Positions 1 through 30,327 of a stretch of 64,000 bases of DNA are shown in pieces (positions within the stretch are counted from its first letter, which is position 1; every line of letters begins with the position of its first letter). Source of the DNA: Patescibacteria group bacterium UBA661. GTDB taxonomy: Bacteria; Patescibacteriota; Minisyncoccia; Phycocordibacterales; UBA918. Under the pieces are notes generated by a model. It was not told the DNA's origin, did no database searches, and saw nothing but the letters and a program-made list of their open reading frames with translations. The translations under genes were made by a program, and so were the position numbers. The DNA is taken from contig DBNX01000018.1 of assembly GCA_002299465.1 (NCBI GenBank), positions 11,987-75,986 of the forward strand. The letters are read 5' to 3'.

Positions 1-5
1 TAGAG

Positions 6-230
6 GTGATTATTGAAGATCCTAAAGAAGTCGCACCAGCACCAAAAGAAGTCATACAACCCCGCACTAGACGCTCGACTAGTTCATTTATAAAACCAAC
101 AATCCCAATGCCACTAGTGGCTGGTGTTGCTACTAGTGCGATAATGACGGAAGCGGAGTACTTGGCAGAATTAGCAAGGTTATTGCGAGAATTACAGCGA
201 TTATTAGAGTTGTATAAAAAAGCATTATGA
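6..230 (+). CDS. 3' end of a gene that starts upstream of the window; its C-terminus ends in a Leu-rich amphipathic tail (…LARLLRELQRLLELYKKAL). The stop overlaps the start of the next gene (ATGA).
   Basis: The ORF is open to the window edge. The tail motif is reiterated as 18-codon mini-ORFs at the next two gene junctions. Confidence 0.4.
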   Translation: MIIEDPKEVAPAPKEVIQPRTRRSTSSFIKPTIPMPLVAGVATSAIMTEAEYLAELARLLRELQRLLELYKKAL

Positions 231-631
231 AAACCACTGGAATAACAATGATCGTTGTTTTGATTATATCTACAATCATTTTCTTCATTTCTCGGTATGC
301 GGTGTATTTAAATCTTTGTATCCCAGAGGATTACTCTTGCCGTTTGCGTTTCGATACAATCGAAAACCTTTTTCTGTTTGGACCAATTCTGCTAGTTGTT
401 TTGATTCCTATATTTCTTCTCCCCACCCACTACTTCACCGCCTTCTTCCAGTTTGCCCGGTTTGGTCTACCCCTCACCATCGCCGCACTTTTCTACATCA
501 ATCTCACCTACGACAGCGGACTCTTTGGCTTTGGTGCTGGATTAGACCTGCTCCTAATTGGGTTGTGTTATTCACTTTTCATCCTCGGTTCACTCAGCGC
601 TCTTGGCTGGGCGTGGTGGCGGGGCAGGTAA
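227..631 (+). CDS. small 4-TM membrane protein, paralogue 1 of a tandem array (134 aa)
   Basis: Hydrophobic helices are present. The C-terminal half is ~96% identical at nucleotide level to copy 3 (421-631 vs 1313-1526). ATGA start/stop coupling with the upstream ORF. Confidence 0.6.
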   Translation: MKTTGITMIVVLIISTIIFFISRYAVYLNLCIPEDYSCRLRFDTIENLFLFGPILLVVLIPIFLLPTHYFTAFFQFARFGLPLTIAALFYINLTYDSGLFGFGAGLDLLLIGLCYSLFILGSLSALGWAWWRGR

Positions 632-683
632 TGAATTTTTGTCTTGAGCTGATAAGATTATTAGAGCTGTCTAAAAAAGTGCT

Positions 684-1076
684 ATGAAAAATATTACTTT
701 AGGGTTGGTTGTTGGTATGAGTATGGTGTGGGCGGTGATTTACTTTTCAAGAGATCTCCGAGATTTTTTACGCCCTTTGCTTGGGGGTGAAGGAATTAGT
801 TTGTTGGTAGAAATATCGTTGTTGTTTGTGATTTTCTTGCCAATATTCATAGTAATCGTTTTTCTACCTTCGTATTACTTTAGATATTGGTTTCGATTTG
901 CTCTCATTGGCTTACCGCTCACGCTTGGCGCTATTATTTACCTTAATATCATACATACACCAGGACTTTTTGGTTGGAACTCCATTTTTTACCCACTATT
1001 TTATTTAATTTTTGTCTCTTTTTTCATCCTCGGTTCACTCAGCGCTCTGGGCTGGGCGTGGTGGCGGGGCAGGTAA
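684..1076 (+). CDS. small 4-TM membrane protein, paralogue 2 (130 aa)
   Basis: Shares the C-terminal motif LGSLSALGWAWWRGR and the last ~60 nt with copies 1 and 3. Preceded by a coupled 18-aa mini-ORF (631-687). Confidence 0.6.
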   Translation: MKNITLGLVVGMSMVWAVIYFSRDLRDFLRPLLGGEGISLLVEISLLFVIFLPIFIVIVFLPSYYFRYWFRFALIGLPLTLGAIIYLNIIHTPGLFGWNSIFYPLFYLIFVSFFILGSLSALGWAWWRGR

Positions 1077-1112
1077 TGGGGTTTTTAGGATCGGGGCGAT
1101 TATTAGATTTGT

Positions 1113-1526
1113 ATGAAAATTATGTGGAATAAAAAGATAAATTTTATAGGTAGTTTGGCAATAACGTTTACATTGCTGGGTTATGGTATTTATTTGGATG
1201 TACTTGGTGGCTGTGAAAGACACATCGAGTGGTGTGTAGCGAGTTTAGATGTCACTCAGAGTATTTTTTATACAATTATTTTGTACACAATTTTTTCCTT
1301 CATCACATTTCTTCTCCCCACCCACTACTTCACCGCCTTCTTCCAGTTTGCCCGGTTTGGTCTACCCCTCACCATCGCCGCACTTTTCTACATCAATCTC
1401 ACCTACGACAGCGGACTCTTTGGCTTTGGTGCTGGATTAGACTTGCTCCTTATTGGGTTGTGTTACTCACTTTTCATCCTCGGTTCACTCCTTGCTCTGG
1501 GCTGGGCGTGGTGGCGGAATAGATAA
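1113..1526 (+). CDS. small 4-TM membrane protein, paralogue 3 (137 aa). By homology the start may be the second ATG at 1122.
   Basis: The C-terminal 70 aa are near-identical to paralogue 1. Preceded by a degenerate mini-ORF (1076-1132). Confidence 0.6.
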   Translation: MKIMWNKKINFIGSLAITFTLLGYGIYLDVLGGCERHIEWCVASLDVTQSIFYTIILYTIFSFITFLLPTHYFTAFFQFARFGLPLTIAALFYINLTYDSGLFGFGAGLDLLLIGLCYSLFILGSLLALGWAWWRNR

Positions 1527-1676
1527 CACTGGGTTGTTTTGTACAGAATGTTTGTCTCACTCACTTCTAATACTTCCTAAGACGAACCACTGACATCACA
1601 CCCCGGCATCTTTTCTACAGCCGTCATAAAGCATAAAATAGTGACTCTGTAAGAGAACAGAGTTCGCTACGTCAGT

Positions 1677-1925
1677 ATGTTTGTTATTACGGCTATGTTC
1701 GAAAAAGTTAAACAATTTATCAGCCTGCGCCCGCGCTTTAAGAAGACGGTGGGTTGGGTGTTGGTTGTTGTTGGGGGAATTGCTTTTGTTGTGCCGCTGG
1801 TGCCGGGCTTTCCGCTACTAATCATTGGTGCGCAGTTGGTGGGCCTGCAATTATTGTCAGAACGTTTAAACAAGACCCAGCCCGCTACTGTCACCGTGCC
1901 GGTTTTGGCAGAAAAAAGTGAGTAG
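1677..1925 (+). CDS. small hypothetical membrane protein (82 aa)
   Basis: ORF with a central hydrophobic helix (VGWVLVVVGGIAFVVPLVPGFPLLIIGA). Confidence 0.35.
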   Translation: MFVITAMFEKVKQFISLRPRFKKTVGWVLVVVGGIAFVVPLVPGFPLLIIGAQLVGLQLLSERLNKTQPATVTVPVLAEKSE

Positions 1926-2235
1926 AAATTAGGTGTGGCTGTTCCTGGTCAGTCCTAAAAGTCAGTCACTGAGTCAGTTTAACTTGGTTTGAATGGCAAA
2001 ACGCCGTCATCCAAAATAGGGAGCACGCCATTTTTGTTGACTTTTTTCAGATTTTTCGGTATCGTAGCCCCTGTTCCACCTCAAGTGAGTAGTGTCACTC
2101 ACAAAATTGAAAAGAAGCTGAGGAAAAGCATAAAAATAAGCTGGGAACCTCTGTTAAGGACGGCCGTTACCTTTCTTTGCAAGAGGTTCTCACTACGGGC
2201 GCGTAAGCGCTCGATTATACGTAGTTAAATAAAAT

Positions 2236-2577
2236 ATGTCACGATCACTCTATAAAGGACCATACGTAGACGAACGTCTACTCAAGAAGATCGCCGGAAA
2301 AAAACCCGGAGAGGGTGGTGCCATCAAAACCTGGGCACGCGCTAGTGTTATCTCACCGGAAATGGTTGGTTTCACTTTTGGTGTACACAATGGCAAAGAA
2401 CACGTCTCGGTATTAGTGGCGGAAGAAATGGTTGGACATCGTTTGGGAGAGTTTTCACCCACGAAGAAATTCCATCGTCACGGCGGTAAAATGCAGAAAG
2501 AACTCGAACAGAAGAAAAAAGATGCTGAAGTAGCGGCCGCTAAAGCAGCCAAGACGGCAGCGACTAATAAGAAATAG
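2236..2577 (+). CDS. rpsS: 30S ribosomal protein S19, with a Lys/Ala-rich C-terminal extension
   Basis: Protein reads [19 protein letters not shown]…[13 protein letters not shown], the canonical S19. Confidence 0.95.
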
Positions 2578-2595
2578 TCAATCACTGAAATCATT

Positions 2596-2919
2596 ATGAA
2601 AGCACTACTAAAAAATTATCGTCAATCACCGCGTAAAGTCCGGTTGGTGGCAGATGTGATTAGAGGTAAAAAAGTGATTGATGCCCTCAATCTTCTTAAG
2701 TTTGTTGATAAGCGAGCCGCGGGACCATTTGCCAAAGTGGTAGCTTCGGCCTTAGCCAACGCCGTACAGGCCGGTAAAGACCAAAGTCGACTCTTTGTGA
2801 AAAAGGTTGCGGTTGACAAGGGAACCATATTGAAACGTTCGATGCCTCGAGCCCGTGGTTCGGCCTCACGAATTAACAAGCGAAATAGCCACATCTCGGT
2901 TGAGCTTGGCGAAAAATAA
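2596..2919 (+). CDS. rplV: 50S ribosomal protein L22
   Basis: S19-L22-S3 order. Sequence MKALLKNYRQSPRKVRLVADVIRGKKV is typical L22. Confidence 0.95.
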   Translation: MKALLKNYRQSPRKVRLVADVIRGKKVIDALNLLKFVDKRAAGPFAKVVASALANAVQAGKDQSRLFVKKVAVDKGTILKRSMPRARGSASRINKRNSHISVELGEK

Positions 2920-2928
2920 TTATCACCT

Positions 2929-3669
2929 ATGACACACGTTGCACATCCATACGTACAGCGCCTAGGCGTAAATCGAGACTGGAAAAGTCGGTGGTTTACC
3001 ACTGACCCGGTTAAGTTTCGCGAATACCTACGCACTGATGCTGCTATTCGCAAATTCCTTGGAGTTAAGCTAAAGGGCATGTCAATCGACTCGATTGAAA
3101 TTGAACGTAGCCAAAAGGAGTTGCGTCTAATCATCAAGACGGCTCGACCAGGTTTGGTCATCGGTCGGAATGGTGAGGGCGCAGTAAAATTAAAAAAAGA
3201 AATTGATATGCTCCTGCGGACTTCCAAATTGTCCCAGAAGCCAGACGTTAAACTAGACATTGAGGAAGTACGCTCGCCAGAATCAAGCGCTCATATTATG
3301 GGTCAAATGATTGCTGAAGGACTTGAGAAACGCCTCACGTTTAGACGCGTGATGAAGCAAGCGATTGAAAAAATAATGGCTAACCGCGATGTGGAAGGAG
3401 TGCGTATTACGCTATCCGGCAGACTAGGCGGAGCTGATATGGCGCGGCGGGAGGAGCTCAAAAAAGGTCGTATCCCACTACAGACATTGCGAGCAGACAT
3501 TGATTTTGCTCGCGTCACAGCGCGCTTGCCTTATGGGGCTATCGGTATCAAGGTTTGGATTTACCGCGGACAAGTTTTTGCTGACCGCAAGAGTGGCCAA
3601 GCCGAAACCGCGCCACGCACTACCACTCGCACTACTCGCACTACTCGCAATACTCGTACTAATGCCTAA
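2929..3669 (+). CDS. rpsC: 30S ribosomal protein S3, with a Thr/Arg-rich C-terminal tail
   Basis: KH/S3 C-domain motifs (GIKVWIYRG). Position in the operon. Confidence 0.95.
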   Translation: MTHVAHPYVQRLGVNRDWKSRWFTTDPVKFREYLRTDAAIRKFLGVKLKGMSIDSIEIERSQKELRLIIKTARPGLVIGRNGEGAVKLKKEIDMLLRTSKLSQKPDVKLDIEEVRSPESSAHIMGQMIAEGLEKRLTFRRVMKQAIEKIMANRDVEGVRITLSGRLGGADMARREELKKGRIPLQTLRADIDFARVTARLPYGAIGIKVWIYRGQVFADRKSGQAETAPRTTTRTTRTTRNTRTNA

Positions 3670-3677
3670 TCATTCAT

Positions 3678-4112
3678 ATGTTATTTCCTAAGAAAGTTAA
3701 GCACCGCAAATGGCAAGTCGGTCGCAAGAGTGAAGCGAAACGAGCGTTACCAGAGACGCGAGGGATTACAGTGGCTTTTGGTTCCTACGGACTTAAAGCA
3801 ACTTCACCGTCAAGAGTTAAGAGCAATCAGATTGAAGCCGCCCGCCGAGTTATCTCTCGTACTTTAGGCAAGACTGGAAAAATCTGGATTCGTATTTTCC
3901 CAGACAAACCAATTACCAAAAAAGCAGCTGAATTGCCGATGGGTAAGGGTAAGGGAGACCCAGATCACTTCGTCTTTGAGGTAAAGCCGGGGCGAGTCAT
4001 CTTTGAGATTGAAGGGGTGAGTGAGGATATTGCCCGCGAAGCATTTCGTAAGGCAACAGCCAAACTACCATTACAAGGTAAGCTCGTGCGTCGTGAAGAC
4101 ACACGTGCCTAA
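3678..4112 (+). CDS. rplP: 50S ribosomal protein L16
   Basis: [16 protein letters not shown]…[11 protein letters not shown] is canonical L16. Confidence 0.95.
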
Positions 4113-4124
4113 GCAAATATCATT

Positions 4125-4325
4125 ATGATCAATATGTCAGACATTCGCAAGAAAACAGACACCGAGCTCGTAGAGTTTGCGCAAAAGGCACGCGAGACTC
4201 TCCGCGGGGAACGGTTTAAGGATAAATTTAGCCGTAAGGCAAATGTGATTACTACTGCAAAAAAGGAAATTGCTCGCACTCTCACGGAGCTTAATACCCG
4301 CTGTCGTAACGCAAAGACTAAATAA
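4125..4325 (+). CDS. rpmC: 50S ribosomal protein L29
   Basis: Small basic protein between L16 and S17 with an L29-like sequence. Confidence 0.85.
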   Translation: MINMSDIRKKTDTELVEFAQKARETLRGERFKDKFSRKANVITTAKKEIARTLTELNTRCRNAKTK

Positions 4326-4330
4326 TTGGT

Positions 4331-4591
4331 ATGACAACAGAACAAACAATCGTCGCCAATCGACGCGTCCTCCGCGGTACAGTAGTATCAACGAAAATGA
4401 AGGATACTATCACGGTCGCTGTCGAACGCTACGTAAAGCACCCAAAGTACAAAAAGTATCTGAGACGAACAAAAAAATATCTGGTTCATGACGCTGGCAA
4501 CACTGCCAAAGAAGGTCAACAGGTCGACATTAGAGAAACCCGCCCACTCTCAAAACGCAAACATTTTGAGCTCGTGGCTAACACCAAGTAA
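4331..4591 (+). CDS. rpsQ: 30S ribosomal protein S17
   Basis: RRVLRGTVVSTKMKDTITVAVERYVKHPKYKK matches the S17 signature. Confidence 0.9.
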   Translation: MTTEQTIVANRRVLRGTVVSTKMKDTITVAVERYVKHPKYKKYLRRTKKYLVHDAGNTAKEGQQVDIRETRPLSKRKHFELVANTK

Positions 4592-4593
4592 GT

Positions 4594-4965
4594 ATGATTC
4601 AACCACAGTCAATCGTAAAAATTACCGATAATTCAGGCGCTAAGATTGGGCGCGTCTTTAAAGTTCTTGGTGGTTCTAAAAAGCGTTATGCTGAGCTTGG
4701 TGAGATGGTGGTACTTTCGGTACAAACTGCCGAACCAAGAAAAATGGTGAAGAAAAAAGATGTGGTGTACGGTGTGGTGGTGCGACAACGCAAACCTTTT
4801 CGCCGCCAGGATGGTTCGTACGTTAGTTTTGATGACAACGCAGTAGTGTTGATTGACAAAGCTAAGCGCGAGCCGCGAGCGAACCGTGTCTTTGGACCGA
4901 TTCCACGGGAGATTGCTGAGTCTGGTTATCAGAAAATCGTATCACTAGCACCAGAGGTGGTGTAA
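4594..4965 (+). CDS. rplN: 50S ribosomal protein L14
   Basis: MIQPQSIVKITDNSGAK is canonical L14. Confidence 0.95.
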   Translation: MIQPQSIVKITDNSGAKIGRVFKVLGGSKKRYAELGEMVVLSVQTAEPRKMVKKKDVVYGVVVRQRKPFRRQDGSYVSFDDNAVVLIDKAKREPRANRVFGPIPREIAESGYQKIVSLAPEVV

Positions 4966-4992
4966 GTATTTCGCTAAATTAAATTAGTTTGT

Positions 4993-5304
4993 ATGAAAAT
5001 TAGAAAAGGTGATACGGTCCAGGTAATGGCTGGCAAAGACAAGAAAAAAGTTGGCACAGTGTTAAGCACTATGCCGAAACTTGGTCTTGTGGTCGTGGCG
5101 GGTGTTAACGTGGTTAAGCGACACAAGAGGAGTCGTCGCACTCGTTCGCAAGGACAAATTATTGAAAAAAGTATGCCTATACAAGTATCAAATGTTTCGC
5201 TTAAGGAAGGAGACAAACCGGTACGGGTCGGGTATATCTTTGAGGGTGAGGGAGAGAAGCGTAAAAAGGTACGCGTCGCTCGCCCGAGTGGTAAGAAAAT
5301 CTAA
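4993..5304 (+). CDS. rplX: 50S ribosomal protein L24
   Basis: MKIRKGDTVQVMAGKDKKKVGTVL carries the KOW motif. Confidence 0.9.
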   Translation: MKIRKGDTVQVMAGKDKKKVGTVLSTMPKLGLVVVAGVNVVKRHKRSRRTRSQGQIIEKSMPIQVSNVSLKEGDKPVRVGYIFEGEGEKRKKVRVARPSGKKI

Positions 5305-5306
5305 AT

Positions 5307-5840
5307 ATGGAAACAACAAACACTCGCTTAAAGAATGCTTACACTGCTCTCAAGGGAGAGTTCGGTTATAAAAATGTGATGCAAGCCCCCAAGATTGAGA
5401 AAGTGGTGGTTTCGGTTGGTACGGGTCGGGTTCAGGATAAGGCGAAAATCGCACTTATTCAGGATCGTCTGGCGCGAATTACCGGCCAAAAAGCCGCCCC
5501 TCGTCCAGCCAAACAATCAATTGCTTCTTTCAAATTGCGTGAGGGTGACATCATTGGCTACCAGGCAACCTTGCGTGGAAAGCGAATGATTCACTTCCTC
5601 GATAGATTGATTCACTTAGCTTTGCCGCGGACTCGTGACTTCCACGGACTCAAAGTTAGCGCTATTGATGAAATGGGTAATTACACGATTGGCATAAAGG
5701 AAAATACTATTTTTCCAGAGTGCGGCGATGAAGAAATCAAAGACGTTTTTTCGATGGCGGTTACTATTGTGACAACTACTCGTGACAAAAAAGCAGCCGA
5801 AGCTTTGTTGCGACATCTCGGCCTACCGCTGAAGCGTTAG
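5307..5840 (+). CDS. rplE: 50S ribosomal protein L5
   Basis: Position after L24. The sequence is L5-like. Confidence 0.95.
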   Translation: METTNTRLKNAYTALKGEFGYKNVMQAPKIEKVVVSVGTGRVQDKAKIALIQDRLARITGQKAAPRPAKQSIASFKLREGDIIGYQATLRGKRMIHFLDRLIHLALPRTRDFHGLKVSAIDEMGNYTIGIKENTIFPECGDEEIKDVFSMAVTIVTTTRDKKAAEALLRHLGLPLKR

Positions 5841-8764: not shown

Positions 8765-10033
8765 ATGCAAAAATTCTTTCGCAAGGTCAGCATCATTTTT
8801 ACCGAACCAGCTATTCGCAACCGAGTACTGTTTGTCTTGGCAGCATTGGTCGTGTTTCGTTTATTGGCAACGATTCCGATTCCGGGTGTTGATCAAGCAG
8901 TGCTTGAGCAATTCTTCGCTGACAATCAGTTTCTTGGTCTACTAAACATTTTCTCGGGTGGTGGTTTAGCTAATATGTCGATTGTGATGCTTGGGGTTGG
9001 TCCTTTCATTACCGCCGCCATCATTATGCAGTTGATGACTGTAATGTCACCGAAATTGAAGGCGATGCACACCGAAGAAGGTGAAGCGGGACGGGCGAGA
9101 TTTACTCAGTACAGTCGTCTGCTTACTTTGCCCCTGGCCATTTTGCAGGGCTTTGGTTTCCTTTCTCTCTTACAGAGTCAGGGTGTGATTGTTGGTCTGT
9201 CGACCTTTGAGTTTATCGTGAACGTGATTCTGGTAGTCGCTGGTTCGATTCTGTTGATGTGGATTGGTGAGTTGGTAACGGAGTACGGTGTTGGTAATGG
9301 TGTGTCAATCATCATCTTTGCTGGTATCGTGGCGACTTTGCCGGCGACGGTTAGTCAGCTAGCTTTTACTTTTGACCCTTCACAATTACCGCTCTTTGTT
9401 GGCTTTGCTTTCATTGCTCTCTTCATTATCTACGCAGTGGTCTTTATGACTGAGGCGGAGCGGCCGGTGCCGATTACTTATGCTAAGCAAAGTCGTGGGG
9501 GAGTAACTTACGGTGGTAGCTCGTCTTATCTACCGCTCCGCCTCAACCAAGCTGGAGTTATTCCAATCATCTTTGCTCTGTCGATCCTACTCTTCCCCCA
9601 GATGGTGCTCAATGTCTTGGCAGCCTTTGATTTGCCGTGGGTGCCACGGGCAACAGAGGTGATTAATGAGTTGTTGGCTAATCAGCTACTCTATGGAGCA
9701 GCGTACTTCATTCTGGTGTTTCTCTTCACCTTCTTCTACACAGCTGTCACTTTTGACCCCGATTCGGTAGCAAAAAATCTGCAGCGAAACGGTGCTTACA
9801 TCTCAGGTATTCGTCCGGGTGAGAACACAGCTGAGTATCTAGGTAACTTGACTACTCGATTGACTCTAGTCGGCGCCCTCTTTCTTGGTGTGGTGGCTGT
9901 CTTCCCTCTTGGTATGCAAGCCGCCACAGGTATTATGGCGCTAGCCATCGGTGGAACGGCGGTACTAATCGTAGTGTCGGTGGTACTTGATATCATTAGA
10001 CGACTTGATGCCCAAGTCGCACTGCGCGAGTAA
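8765..10033 (+). CDS. secY: preprotein translocase subunit SecY
   Basis: 10-TM protein located after rplO, with SecY-typical motifs. Confidence 0.95.
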   Translation: MQKFFRKVSIIFTEPAIRNRVLFVLAALVVFRLLATIPIPGVDQAVLEQFFADNQFLGLLNIFSGGGLANMSIVMLGVGPFITAAIIMQLMTVMSPKLKAMHTEEGEAGRARFTQYSRLLTLPLAILQGFGFLSLLQSQGVIVGLSTFEFIVNVILVVAGSILLMWIGELVTEYGVGNGVSIIIFAGIVATLPATVSQLAFTFDPSQLPLFVGFAFIALFIIYAVVFMTEAERPVPITYAKQSRGGVTYGGSSSYLPLRLNQAGVIPIIFALSILLFPQMVLNVLAAFDLPWVPRATEVINELLANQLLYGAAYFILVFLFTFFYTAVTFDPDSVAKNLQRNGAYISGIRPGENTAEYLGNLTTRLTLVGALFLGVVAVFPLGMQAATGIMALAIGGTAVLIVVSVVLDIIRRLDAQVALRE

Positions 10034-23351: not shown

Positions 23352-23373
23352 TTGTTCCACATGCTTCTATGTC

Positions 23374-23771
23374 GGTGGAGATGGGGAGAATTGAACTCCC
23401 GTCCGAATTAGGTGCTTAGAGCGAGTCTACAGTGTGTAGGGTATTCTTTGGTTTAAGTTTCTAATCTAGAGAATAGACAAGACAATTAGATTCCGAGTTG
23501 TGACAAAGCTCGAGCATAATGACAACGACATTTCTGCTCAAAGTCTCATGGCTATTTTGCAAGACACACGGTACGAGACCCTTGGTGCGCTCACATCACT
23601 CCGGCGAGCGTAAGATTACGCAAAGGCGGGAGCGAATCCAAACGCGCGAGCGTATGGACTTGGTACTGCTTTGTCTGCACGTACGAATGCCTGAGATTTT
23701 AACGCAGTTCTCAGACAGCTGCGACACTGCACACAATAAGACAACACTAACCGTCGATGCCTAGCATCCCC
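23374..23771 (-). ncRNA. ssrA: tmRNA (ssrA)
   Basis: 5' GGGGATGCTAGGCATCGACGG and 3' GGACGGGAGTTCAATTCTCCCCATCTCCACC resemble E. coli tmRNA termini. The acceptor stem has a G3:U70 wobble. Adjacent to smpB. Confidence 0.85.
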
Positions 23772-30254: not shown

Positions 30255-30327
30255 TCCGCCAACCTGGACTCGAACCAGGGACCACAGAGGTATAAGCTCT
30301 GCGCTCTACCAACTGAGCTATTGGCGG
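30255..30327 (-). tRNA. tRNA-Ile with anticodon UAU
   Basis: 73-nt clean cloverleaf CCGCCAA-TA-GCTC-AGTTGGTA-GAGC-G-CAGAG-CTTATAC-CTCTG-TGGTC-CCTGG-TTCGAGT-CCAGG-TTGGCGG-A. The anticodon loop CT-TAT-AC gives UAU. CCA is not encoded. Confidence 0.85.

What the first reader, a model, noticed from the sequence alone, without database searches (positions are those of the whole stretch)
1..1530. Tandem array of three paralogous small 4-TM proteins, each translationally coupled to a reiterated Leu-rich tail of the upstream gene
The three genes (227-631, 684-1076, 1113-1526) have variable N-terminal halves. Copies 1 and 3 have near-identical, GC-richer C-terminal halves (~96% nt identity), and all three share the last ~60 nt.

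Each junction carries an 18-codon mini-ORF (631-687, 1076-1132) that reiterates the C-terminal tail of the upstream truncated gene (…LLELYKKAL). Its stop overlaps the next ATG (ATGA).

This architecture resembles orphan immunity-gene cassettes that build up by recombination downstream of polymorphic toxin or bacteriocin genes. The window edge cuts off the upstream gene, so it cannot be assessed.
Basis: seen in the sequence. Interest (0 to 1): 0.55.

Follow-up and report, generated by a model that had tools for sequence, protein, structure and literature searches.

The report
Lipase-linked membrane-protein cassette array
Three related small membrane-protein genes sit behind a secreted phospholipase-like gene in an ultra-small (CPR) bacterium, each carrying a leftover of the lipase gene's last codons. 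This looks like a stack of spare "immunity" cassettes, of a kind not yet described in these bacteria, though the function is untested.

Summary
Three paralogous 4-TM genes (227-631, 684-1076, 1122/1113-1526) are each preceded by a copy or relic of the upstream gene's Leu-rich tail. A 211-nt tract shared by genes 1 and 3 (96.7%) and a 58-nt tract shared by genes 1 and 2 (98.3%) show gene conversion.

The cut-off upstream gene was recovered from the source contig. It encodes a 929-aa Sec-signal protein with an LCAT/LPLA2-like phospholipase fold. It ends in a disordered linker, a VAGV motif and a 25-aa amphipathic helix.

The small proteins belong to an unannotated family of about 150 clusters. 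In all 11 lineages examined, a member lies directly after, or overlapping, such a lipase gene. At least three other arrays (L013/L014, L015-17, L021) also hold stacked cassettes of lipase-tail relic plus 4-TM gene, some derived from foreign lipase types. Array content differs between close relatives. The N-terminal ~45 codons form a hypervariable, AT-rich cassette between conserved flanks.

Best reading (about 0.5): the 4-TM proteins are cognate and orphan self-protection partners of a surface phospholipase, accumulated by displacement recombination. The main rival (about 0.25) is a docking partner. No function was tested. I rate it a new variant of a known kind.

The parts
1..230 (+). 3' end (last 76 codons plus stop) of a 929/935-aa secreted LCAT/LPLA2-like alpha/beta-hydrolase gene. 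The rest lies upstream of the window (L002:7197/7215-10004).
   Evidence: The window is identical to L002 from position 9775. Pfam PF02450 E 2.7e-13, 50.4 bits against a cut-off of 21. AF2 pLDDT 82. Foldseek to LPLA2 E 7e-13, LCAT about 1e-11, Tle4 6e-9.
117..227 (+). Conserved C-terminal tail: the VAGVATS motif followed by a 25-aa Leu-rich amphipathic helix (about 150-227), ...EAEYLAELARLLRELQRLLELYKKAL.
   Evidence: A tail HMM built without this sequence hits it at E 1.5e-18. The alignment of 24 tails is. AF2 models a disordered linker at 862-898 and a helix at 910-934.
227..631 (+). 4-TM gene 1 (134 aa, N-half type C with a Cys pair in outer loop 1). Its ATG overlaps the lipase stop codon (ATGA). 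Presumed cognate partner.
   Evidence: 4-TM family HMM E 6e-45. AF2 pLDDT 92 with four TM helices.
631..687 (+). Junction 1: an 18-codon mini-ORF that is a relic of a lipase tail (MNFCLELIRLLELSKKVL*). It starts at TAATG and ends in ATGA.
   Evidence: 199-233 vs 656-690 are 85.7% identical, E 1e-6. Motif count.
684..1076 (+). 4-TM gene 2 (130 aa, N-half type B without a Cys pair). It has its own AT-rich C-half, except for the last 58 nt, which are converted to the gene-1 sequence.
   Evidence: The type-B orthologue P0006 follows a lipase directly in L011.
1076..1132 (+). Junction 2: an 18-codon mini-ORF that is a relic of a lipase tail of the ...LYxxxYV(K/E)* type (MGFLGSGRLLDLYENYVE*). Its stop codon lies 11 nt inside gene 3.
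   Evidence: 197-220 vs 1096-1119 are 91.7% identical. The same 11-nt overlap and tail ending occur in the natural pairs L005, L007 and L010.
1122..1526 (+). 4-TM gene 3 (134 aa from ATG 1122, or 137 aa from the alternative ATG 1113; N-half type A). Its C-half is 96.7% identical to that of gene 1.
   Evidence: Its N-half is closest to P0004 of L010 (58%).
412..622 (+). Gene-conversion tract shared with 1307-1517 (GC-rich C-terminal half).
   Evidence: 96.7% over 211 nt. The identity profile jumps from about 0.3-0.5 to 1.0.
1677..1925 (+). 82-aa predicted membrane ORF after the array. It occupies the position where relatives have DUF1360. Whether it belongs to the system is uncertain.
   Evidence: Only weak DUF454 similarity. 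Synteny.

Best explanation
**What it is.** The locus is a two-gene module of Patescibacteria (CPR; Paceibacteria-like). The first gene encodes a Sec-secreted LCAT/LPLA2-type phospholipase. Its C-terminus is a flexible linker ending in a 25-aa amphipathic helix. The second gene encodes a small membrane protein with four TM helices and is started by overlap with the lipase stop codon.

**Proposed function (inferred).** The 4-TM protein is the producer's self-protection partner. It holds or neutralises the lipase at the producer's own membrane. The most likely contact is the tail helix against the conserved TM3-TM4 half.

**How the array arose.** Recombination has repeatedly replaced the lipase 3' end together with the 4-TM gene. 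This pushes older or foreign cassettes downstream, where the lipase part decays to a tail relic of 13-58 codons while the 4-TM gene stays intact. The result is an array of cognate plus orphan genes that would protect against lipase variants of related cells. Within the array, gene conversion homogenises the C-terminal halves. The first ~45 codons (TM1, outer loop 1, start of TM2) are swapped as a hypervariable cassette.

**Mini-ORFs.** In this window the relics remain open from TAATG to the next start codon. Ribosomes could therefore be passed from gene to gene.

**Shown:** the anatomy, the lipase linkage, the relics, the conversion tracts, the mosaicism and the lipase fold.

**Inferred:** lipase activity, the protective function, the tail/4-TM contact and the translational coupling.
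For: **Linkage.** In 11 lineages a 4-TM family gene lies from -29 to +4 nt of the stop codon of an LCAT-like lipase gene or lipase tail. The loci are the window, L005, L007, L010, L011, L013/14, L015-17, L018, L019, L020 and L022. L022 holds a member only 28% identical to gene 1, in a different genomic context.

**Lipase.**
- Signal peptides are present in all full-length homologues.
- AHSNGG, D652 and H689 are invariant in 31 homologues.
- Foldseek matches LPLA2 (E 7e-13, TM 0.64-0.69), LCAT, and the T6SS phospholipase toxin Tle4 (E 6e-9).

**Orphan-like cassettes elsewhere.**
- L013: the resident lipase has a P0024-type tail. The second 4-TM gene is preceded by a relic, YYKELQKTLEDIAELLVLIEGQYEK*, of the P0022-type tail. 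Its N-half (70%) and C-half (58%) are both closest to the P0022 cognate.
- L021: a 58-aa relic ORF is identical to the last 29 aa of P0022 and precedes an intact 4-TM gene.
- L015: the relic ...ILQKIQKVVDLYKLMNKS*.

**Plasticity.** L015 and L021 are 90-94% identical in flanking DNA but differ in array content.

**Hypervariable cassette between conserved flanks.**

**Co-variation.** Tail similarity tracks C-half similarity (rho 0.70, Mantel p 2e-4).

**Precedent.** The staphylococcal lipase toxins TslA and TslM have C-terminal helical domains and arrays of non-identical membrane-bound or lipoprotein immunity genes at recombination hot spots (PMC13560087). Patescibacteria lack lipid synthesis, and their phospholipases are proposed to attack host envelopes (PMC11665869).
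Against: - No toxicity or protection was tested.
- The catalytic domain is conserved and central, unlike the swapped C-terminal toxin domains of polymorphic toxins.
- The 4-TM outer loops are only about 10-12 residues, too small to occlude a lipase active site in the way Tli or Til proteins do.
- The variable N-half does not co-vary with the tail (rho -0.09), so its specificity partner is unknown.
- The tail/C-half correlation may simply reflect shared descent.
- No 4-TM gene was found away from a lipase locus, whereas orphan immunity genes are often scattered. Only about 12 loci were seen, however.
- The module is syntenic next to rplJ in many lineages, which looks like core physiology rather than an accessory weapon.
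- The relics are too short for protein-HMM significance (E 3.4). The evidence for them is at the nucleotide level and from position.
Confidence: 0.5

Rival explanations
1. Docking or anchoring partner, with no conflict role. The tail helix on its flexible linker plugs into the 4-TM protein, which tethers the secreted lipase to the surface of a cell that has no outer membrane. It may also orient or activate the lipase toward the host cell. Extra copies are alternative docks produced by ordinary tandem duplication, and the relics are by-products of the duplication unit.
For: AF2 models a disordered linker of about 40 aa followed by a single terminal helix, which is tether-like. The lipase family uses three alternative C-terminal modules, as expected for alternative anchoring devices. 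Pairing is strict, with start/stop overlaps that suggest stoichiometric co-production. Tail similarity tracks the conserved C-half. The module is syntenic and widespread, like a core function.
Against: This does not explain why intact foreign-type 4-TM genes are kept behind a mere relic of their own lipase (L013, L021). It does not explain why the N-half is hypervariable, AT-rich and swapped as a cassette. It does not explain why array content differs between close relatives.
Confidence: 0.25
2. Lipid-acquisition partner. The lipase releases lysolipids or fatty acids from host membranes. The 4-TM protein takes them up or flips them into the membrane of a bacterium that cannot make its own lipids.
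For: Patescibacteria lack lipid synthesis, and no uptake route is known (PMC11665869). The lipase has an LPLA2/LCAT-type fold with transacylase relatives. The 4-TM family has conserved polar motifs at the membrane interfaces (WWKFAR, LHHxPGGW, RGY).
Against: The HH/PGGW motif is not kept in the window's own clade (LTYDSGLFGFGAG). A transporter would not be expected to show hypervariable N-terminal cassettes, orphan-like arrays or lipase-tail relics. There is no structural match to any transporter.
Confidence: 0.1
3. Coincidental neighbours. The array is a plain tandem duplication of an unrelated membrane-protein gene that happened to include the end of the preceding gene, with no functional link to the lipase.
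For: The two window junctions share one breakpoint (TAATG) and are homologous to each other. At least one step was therefore a simple duplication of a ~445-nt unit.
Against: In 11 of 11 lineages the family is adjacent to a lipase or lipase tail, in at least three different genomic contexts. Relics of different lipase lineages occur within one array.
Confidence: 0.05
4. Sub-hypothesis about the mini-ORFs. They are translated and act as relays for termination-reinitiation coupling, passing ribosomes from one 4-TM gene to the next in a genome that shows no Shine-Dalgarno motifs.
For: Both mini-ORFs start at an ATG overlapping the previous stop codon (TAATG). They end overlapping or inside the next gene, just as the lipase stop does in natural pairs. 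No SD-like sequence precedes these genes or the ribosomal-protein genes. No convincing promoter or terminator lies inside the array: counts are close to the shuffled-sequence expectation.
Against: In other arrays the relics lack a start codon or are separated from the neighbouring genes (L013, L015). The frame may therefore be open only because the relic is young or was recently converted. There are no expression data.
Confidence: 0.3

Closest known systems
Orphan toxin-CT/immunity modules of polymorphic toxin loci (CDI cdiA-CT/cdiI, Rhs; Zhang et al. 2012, PMC3482391)
   Same: A large secreted protein gene is followed at once by a small cognate gene. Downstream lie stacked cassettes made of a 3' fragment of the large gene plus an intact small gene. 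Some cassettes are of foreign type, and content differs between close relatives.
   Different: The exchanged piece is only a tail helix of about 30-50 aa, not a toxin domain. The catalytic domain is central and conserved. Export is by a plain Sec signal. The small gene encodes a 4-TM protein with its own internal hypervariable cassette.
Staphylococcal T7SS 'reverse' lipase toxins TslA/TilA and TslM/TilM (PMC13560087)
   Same: A phospholipase toxin with a C-terminal helical region. Arrays of non-identical immunity genes (membrane proteins for TslM, lipoproteins for TslA) sit at recombination-prone loci.
   Different: There is no LXG-like domain: AF2 shows a single 25-aa helix. There is no WXG/Lap partner. 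Secretion is Sec-dependent. The immunity families DUF576 and DUF1433 are unrelated (no Pfam hit), and they have a globular outer domain that can cover the active site.
T6SS phospholipase effector Tle4 with Tli4 (PDB 4r1d)
   Same: The lipase model matches Tle4 structurally (E 5.8e-9) and weakly by sequence profile. Tle4 is an antibacterial membrane-targeting phospholipase with a dedicated immunity protein.
   Different: LPLA2 and LCAT are closer matches. There is no T6SS context. Tli4 is a periplasmic protein, not a 4-TM protein.
Immunity proteins of pore-forming colicins (Cai, Cei) and other small polytopic immunity proteins
   Same: Proteins of about 110-180 aa with 3-4 TM helices, encoded next to the toxin gene. 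They recognise a helical toxin segment within the membrane. (From general knowledge, not tested here.)
   Different: No sequence or fold similarity was found. Here the partner is an enzyme with one amphipathic helix, not a pore-forming domain.
LCAT / lysosomal phospholipase A2 family (PF02450)
   Same: The Pfam hit is above the gathering score. The Ser-Asp-His residues are invariant and in the LCAT order. These are the best Foldseek matches.
   Different: The bacterial protein is about 930 aa, with extra N-terminal and C-terminal beta-sandwich domains and the linker-plus-helix tail. Only about 15-17% identity to the solved structures.

Membership tests
Polymorphic toxin / orphan immunity cassette systems | Small cognate gene immediately downstream of the secreted toxin gene | tested here: met
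   11 lineages, with spacing from -29 to +4 nt.
Polymorphic toxin / orphan immunity cassette systems | Downstream orphan modules made of a toxin 3' fragment plus an intact immunity gene, variable between strains | tested here: met
   Window junctions. L013 foreign-type relic plus gene. L021 58-aa relic ORF. L015 vs L021 content differences.
Polymorphic toxin / orphan immunity cassette systems | Conserved N-terminal trafficking region with a variable C-terminal toxin domain | tested here: not met
   The catalytic domain is central (about 280-710) and conserved. The N-terminal ~270 aa are the most variable part. Only a short tail is exchanged.
Polymorphic toxin / orphan immunity cassette systems | Co-variation of the toxin's variable part with the immunity protein | tested here: inconclusive
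   Tail vs C-half: rho 0.70, Mantel p 2e-4, not separable from shared descent. Tail vs variable N-half: rho -0.09 (11 pairs).
Polymorphic toxin / orphan immunity cassette systems | Toxicity of the large protein and specific neutralisation by the small one | not testable with these tools
   Needs expression experiments.
LCAT/LPLA2-like alpha/beta-hydrolases (PF02450) | Profile match above the curated cut-off | tested here: met
   50.4 bits against 21, E 2.7e-13.
LCAT/LPLA2-like alpha/beta-hydrolases (PF02450) | Nucleophile elbow and Ser-Asp-His triad conserved | tested here: met
   H433-S434-N435-G436-G437, D652 and H689 are invariant in 31 homologues. Assigning these residues as the triad is an inference from order and spacing.
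LCAT/LPLA2-like alpha/beta-hydrolases (PF02450) | Fold similarity to solved members | tested here: met
   LPLA2 E 7e-13, TM (target) 0.64-0.69. LCAT E 4e-11.
T7SS reverse lipase toxins (Tsl1/Tsl2) | C-terminal LXG-like helical domain and WXG/Lap partner genes | tested here: not met
   A single 25-aa helix follows a disordered linker. The protein has an N-terminal Sec signal. No small helical partner gene lies in the locus.
T7SS reverse lipase toxins (Tsl1/Tsl2) | Immunity proteins of the DUF576 or DUF1433 families | tested here: not met
   No Pfam or NCBIfam family matches the 4-TM proteins.
Lipase-specific foldase (Lif) pairs | Downstream gene encodes a single-TM protein of about 340 aa with a large helical periplasmic domain | tested here: not met
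   The partner is 130-137 aa with four TM helices and short loops.
New 4-TM family (no name) | About 125-150 aa, four TM helices, motifs LPxxxFxxWWKFARxxIP and GSxIQIxRGY | tested here: met
   153 representative clusters at E<=1e-3 and 29 at E<=1e-10 among 1.84 billion proteins. Alignment. AF2 pLDDT 92.

The most novel reading that the evidence does not exclude
This would be the first lipase toxin/immunity-type conflict system described in Paceibacteria-like CPR bacteria. The Sec-secreted surface phospholipase would be recognised in the membrane through its tethered C-terminal helix by a new family of 4-TM proteins. The N-terminal ~45 codons of those proteins would be a dedicated hypervariable cassette, exchanged between two conserved recombination arms: the lipase tail upstream and the C-terminal half downstream. 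The relic mini-ORFs would double as translational relays. Such a system could decide which epibiont strains can share a host and how the cell avoids digesting its own scavenged membrane.
Probability: 0.3. Interest if true: 0.75.

Novelty: new variant of a known kind. Interest (0 to 1): 0.6.

Why it matters
Patescibacteria cannot make lipids, and they are thought to attack host envelopes with surface phospholipases (PMC11665869). How they avoid damaging their own membrane, and whether they compete with one another, is unknown.

This locus supplies a concrete and widespread candidate pair: a lipase with a helical tail and a 4-TM partner. It has the genomic signatures of an arms race, namely orphan cassettes, gene conversion and a hypervariable segment.

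The pair is small enough to test directly in heterologous hosts.

It also defines two unannotated sequence families: the 4-TM protein and the VAGV-plus-helix tail. Neither Pfam nor NCBIfam covers them.

Tried and rejected
**Family scans.** Pfam and NCBIfam scans of the three 4-TM proteins gave only sub-threshold noise (DUF996, DUF3681).

**Structure.**
- Foldseek of the 4-TM model against the PDB found nothing below E 3.
- The single-sequence PDB search with the lipase found nothing. The profile search gave only weak hits around AHSNGG.

**Collection scans.**
- The genome-contig scan gave one hit, in a Hydrogenedentota contig (L012). It did not score with the family HMM and is taken as spurious.
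- The metagenome scan returned only L013 and L014.
- The viral-contig scan with the lipase found nothing.

**Tail searches.**
- A tail-profile search of 5.8 billion proteins found only two short relic or fragment ORFs. The tail is therefore not a general sorting signal detectable at this sensitivity.
- A tail HMM found no other tail-bearing protein in the 64-kb window.

**Ideas dropped.**
- I expected the tail to co-vary with the variable N-half, as interacting partners would. It does not, so I dropped that idea.
- I considered the GC-rich C-halves to be a sign of foreign origin. The contrast between an AT-rich N-half and a GC-richer C-half is family-wide, so I dropped that too.
- A sortase-, exosortase- or holin-like role for the 4-TM protein has no support. 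There are no conserved catalytic residues in the window clade, and the lipase has its own signal peptide.

**Literature.** Searches for LCAT, lipase or immunity in CPR bacteria found no description of this system.
Full report
**1. The observation**

The three ORFs are present at 227-631, 684-1076 and 1113-1526. They are clear paralogues.

A BLAST self-comparison of the first 1.7 kb gives four repeats:
- 412-622 vs 1307-1517: 96.7% over 211 nt.
- 576-633 vs 1021-1078: 98.3% over 58 nt.
- 199-233 vs 656-690: 85.7% over 35 nt.
- 197-220 vs 1096-1119: 91.7% over 24 nt.

Two motif counts serve as chance controls. The junction motif GATTATTAGANNTGT occurs only at 199, 656 and 1098 in 64 kb, against 0.08 expected. 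The 45-nt gene-end motif occurs only at the three gene ends.

The two 18-codon mini-ORFs (631-687 and 1076-1132) are real. Both begin with an ATG that overlaps the preceding stop codon (TAATG). The first ends in ATGA on the start of gene 2. The second ends 11 nt inside gene 3.

By homology, the start of gene 3 is more likely 1122 (MWNKK...) than 1113.

The arrangement is recorded independently in two JGI samples and on an NCBI contig, so it is not an assembly artefact.

**2. The upstream gene**

The window is identical to JGI contig Ga0326330_1000006, which supplies the missing sequence.

The truncated gene encodes a protein of 929 aa (935 aa from an upstream TTG start). It has:
- an N-terminal signal peptide;
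- a Pfam LCAT domain (E 2.7e-13);
- the nucleophile motif AHSNGG.

In an alignment of 31 homologues, H433-S434-N435-G436-G437, D652 and H689 are invariant.

The AlphaFold2 model has a mean pLDDT of 82. It shows:
- a signal helix;
- an N-terminal beta-sandwich plus helical region;
- an alpha/beta-hydrolase core (about 280-710);
- a C-terminal beta-sandwich (about 729-860);
- a disordered linker (862-898);
- one terminal helix (910-934).

Foldseek places the core closest to lysosomal phospholipase A2 (E 7e-13, TM 0.64-0.69) and LCAT. The next match is the T6SS phospholipase toxin Tle4 (E 5.8e-9).

At least 165 homologues exist. Every named source but one is Paceibacteria, Parcubacteria or Patescibacteria; the exception is an Acidimicrobiales-labelled MAG. 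The ribosomal operon lacks L30. The organism is therefore very probably a CPR bacterium. This is an inference.

The closest lipases all end with the same tail. It is a basic/Ser-rich stretch, then (Q/E)VAG(V/I), then a Leu-rich amphipathic helix. A tail HMM built without the window sequence recognises the window tail at E 1.5e-18.

**3. The small proteins**

No Pfam or NCBIfam model matches them.

A word-indexed search of 5.8 billion proteins found only seven close relatives. An exhaustive profile search of 1.84 billion cluster representatives found 153 members at E<=1e-3 and 29 at E<=1e-10. Nearly all are 125-150 aa.

Conserved motifs lie in the second half of the protein: LPxxxFxxWWKFARxxIP, a short outer loop, and GSxIQIxRGY. 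The first half is poorly conserved.

AlphaFold2 (pLDDT 92) gives four membrane-length helices at 2-23, 36-64 (kinked), 67-94 and 104-133. No solved structure resembles the model.

The charge distribution and the Cys pair in loop 1 suggest an N-in/C-in topology with two short outer loops. This is an inference.

**4. Linkage to the lipase**

Every family member whose upstream DNA could be read lies directly after an LCAT-like lipase gene, after its recognisable tail, or inside an array that follows one:

| Locus | Evidence (calls) |
|---|---|
| window | 6 |
| L005, L007 | 13-16 |
| L010 | 17, 53 |
| L011 | 18, 21 |
| L013/L014 | 38-40 |
| L015-17 | 42 |
| L018 | 43 |
| L019, L020 | 51-55 |
| L022 | 81, 82 |

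L022 holds a member only 28% identical to gene 1, in a different genomic neighbourhood.

The 4-TM start codon overlaps the lipase stop by 4, 8, 11 or 29 nt, or follows it within 4 nt.

The usual neighbourhood is lipase, 4-TM (n copies), DUF1360, rplJ, rplL. In the window's organism the block lies instead between rplB and rpsS.

**5. Relics and arrays elsewhere**

- **L013/L014.** The resident lipase ends ...LLSELQVLLSELEKMYD* and overlaps a first 4-TM gene. The 147-nt spacer that follows contains ...YYKELQKTLEDIAELLVLIEGQYEK*. This is the tail type of a different lipase lineage (P0019/P0022), and it overlaps a second 4-TM gene by 11 nt. Both halves of that second gene are closest to the P0022 cognate.
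- **L021.** A 58-aa ORF between 4-TM genes matches the last 29 residues of P0022 exactly and precedes an intact 4-TM gene.
- **L015-17.** The P0022 lipase is followed by five small membrane-protein genes, four of which score with the family HMM (two strongly, two weakly). At least one further relic is present (...ILQKIQKVVDLYKLMNKS*).
- **L015 vs L021.** They are 90-94% identical in flanking genes but differ in which cassettes they hold.
- **The window.** Relic 2 (RLLDLYENYVE*) has the ending and the 11-nt overlap typical of the lipases paired with type-A 4-TM genes (L005, L007, L010). The N-half of gene 3 is closest to the L010 protein (58%).

**6. Mosaic structure**

In three independent arrays, non-adjacent paralogues share near-identical C-terminal halves but unrelated N-terminal halves. 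These are window genes 1 and 3, L021, and L015 genes c and e.

I compared the L015 lipase end plus gene a with the L021 relic plus gene c'. Identity is:
- 90-100% over the tail;
- 33-50% over the first ~130 nt of the 4-TM gene;
- 80-97% over the rest.

The first ~45 codons therefore behave as a cassette between two conserved flanks.

Across 11 natural pairs:
- tail similarity tracks C-half similarity (rho 0.70, Mantel p 2e-4);
- tail similarity does not track N-half similarity (rho -0.09).

Across 150 family members, presence of the loop-1 Cys pair is independent of the C-half loop class. This is a crude classification.

N-halves are AT-rich (24-39% GC) and C-halves are richer (41-54% GC) in every lineage.

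**7. Most likely mechanism**

*Shown:*
- a conserved, start/stop-overlapped gene pair of a secreted phospholipase-fold enzyme and a 4-TM protein;
- repeated stacking of cassettes made of a lipase-tail relic plus a 4-TM gene, some of foreign type;
- gene conversion of the C-halves and cassette-like replacement of the N-halves.

*Inferred:*
- The 4-TM protein protects the producer's membrane from its own surface lipase.
- It probably does so by engaging the tethered tail helix through its conserved half.
- The downstream copies are orphan protectors against lipase variants of related cells.
- They accumulated by the same displacement recombination that builds orphan modules in CDI and Rhs loci.

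The strongest argument is that intact foreign-type 4-TM genes are retained behind mere relics of their own lipase.

The open mini-ORFs in the window could pass ribosomes along the array. This genome shows no Shine-Dalgarno motifs. There are no convincing internal promoters or terminators either.

**8. Rivals**

- **Docking or anchoring partner.** This fits the linker-plus-helix anatomy and the existence of alternative C-terminal modules in the lipase family. It does not explain the orphan-like cassettes or the hypervariability.
- **Lipid-uptake partner.** This fits CPR biology (PMC11665869) but not the arms-race signatures.
- **Pure coincidence.** This is excluded by the 11 of 11 linkage.

None of these could be tested functionally here.

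**9. Comparison with known systems**

The architecture matches the orphan cassette arrays of polymorphic toxin loci. It differs from them in three ways:
- the enzyme domain is not the exchanged part;
- export is by Sec;
- the partner is a polytopic membrane protein.

The nearest functional analogy is the staphylococcal pair TslA/TslM. These are phospholipase toxins with C-terminal helical domains and rafts of non-identical membrane or lipoprotein immunity genes (PMC13560087). The domains and families involved are unrelated. Tle4/Tli4 is a structural relative of the enzyme only.

No paper in the searchable library describes this lipase tail, the 4-TM family or their pairing.

**10. Limits**

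- Look-ups of genomic context were capped, so only about a dozen loci were seen.
- What follows lipases with the other two C-terminal modules is unknown.
- The relics are too short for protein-level statistics. They rest on nucleotide identity, position and frame.
- No complex prediction could be run.
- Taxonomy is inferred from homologue names and operon content.

Noticed in passing
window 1-2235 (L002:4473-12010): The lipase/4-TM block is inserted between rplB and rpsS and splits the S10 ribosomal-protein operon. The block also contains a DUF2103 gene on the minus strand, a 192-aa hypothetical gene, an ECF sigma factor and a DUF7282 protein. In other lineages the lipase/4-TM module sits upstream of DUF1360-rplJ-rplL instead.
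   Followed up: partly
window 2236-5840 and L001/L002:17400-18600: There is no L30 gene between rpsE and rplO, consistent with a CPR/Patescibacteria genome. No Shine-Dalgarno-like motif precedes any of the ribosomal-protein genes inspected.
   Followed up: partly
window 1677-1925 (+): An 82-aa predicted membrane ORF with only weak DUF454 similarity follows the array. It occupies the position where relatives have a DUF1360 gene.
   Followed up: partly
lipase homologues P0026/27/33/34 and P0039 onward: The lipase family carries three alternative C-terminal modules. The first is the linker plus VAGV plus helix tail. The second is a helical end of about 100 aa. The third is a long Ig-like extension ending ...G.V.V.Y. 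The N-terminal decorations also vary (beta-helix, DNRLRE, lamin-tail). The genes downstream of the last two classes were not examined.
   Followed up: no
L021:2139-3170: A 343-aa ORF inside the array looks like a stand-alone copy of the lipase C-terminal beta-sandwich (SPLHMY...IDYDGDGEVD). It may be a larger displaced lipase fragment.
   Followed up: no
L015:418-2090: PemK and RelB toxin-antitoxin genes and a Y1 transposase lie 3-4 kb upstream of the P0022 lipase locus. This hints at a mobile or recombination-prone neighbourhood.
   Followed up: no
window 23373-23771 (-) and 30255-30327 (-): A tmRNA gene (93.5 bits) and one tRNA gene are the only Rfam matches above gathering score in the window.
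   Followed up: no
L002:1-1682: A 1250-aa LVIVD/Big_2/CARDB surface-type protein gene lies just upstream of rplC.
   Followed up: no
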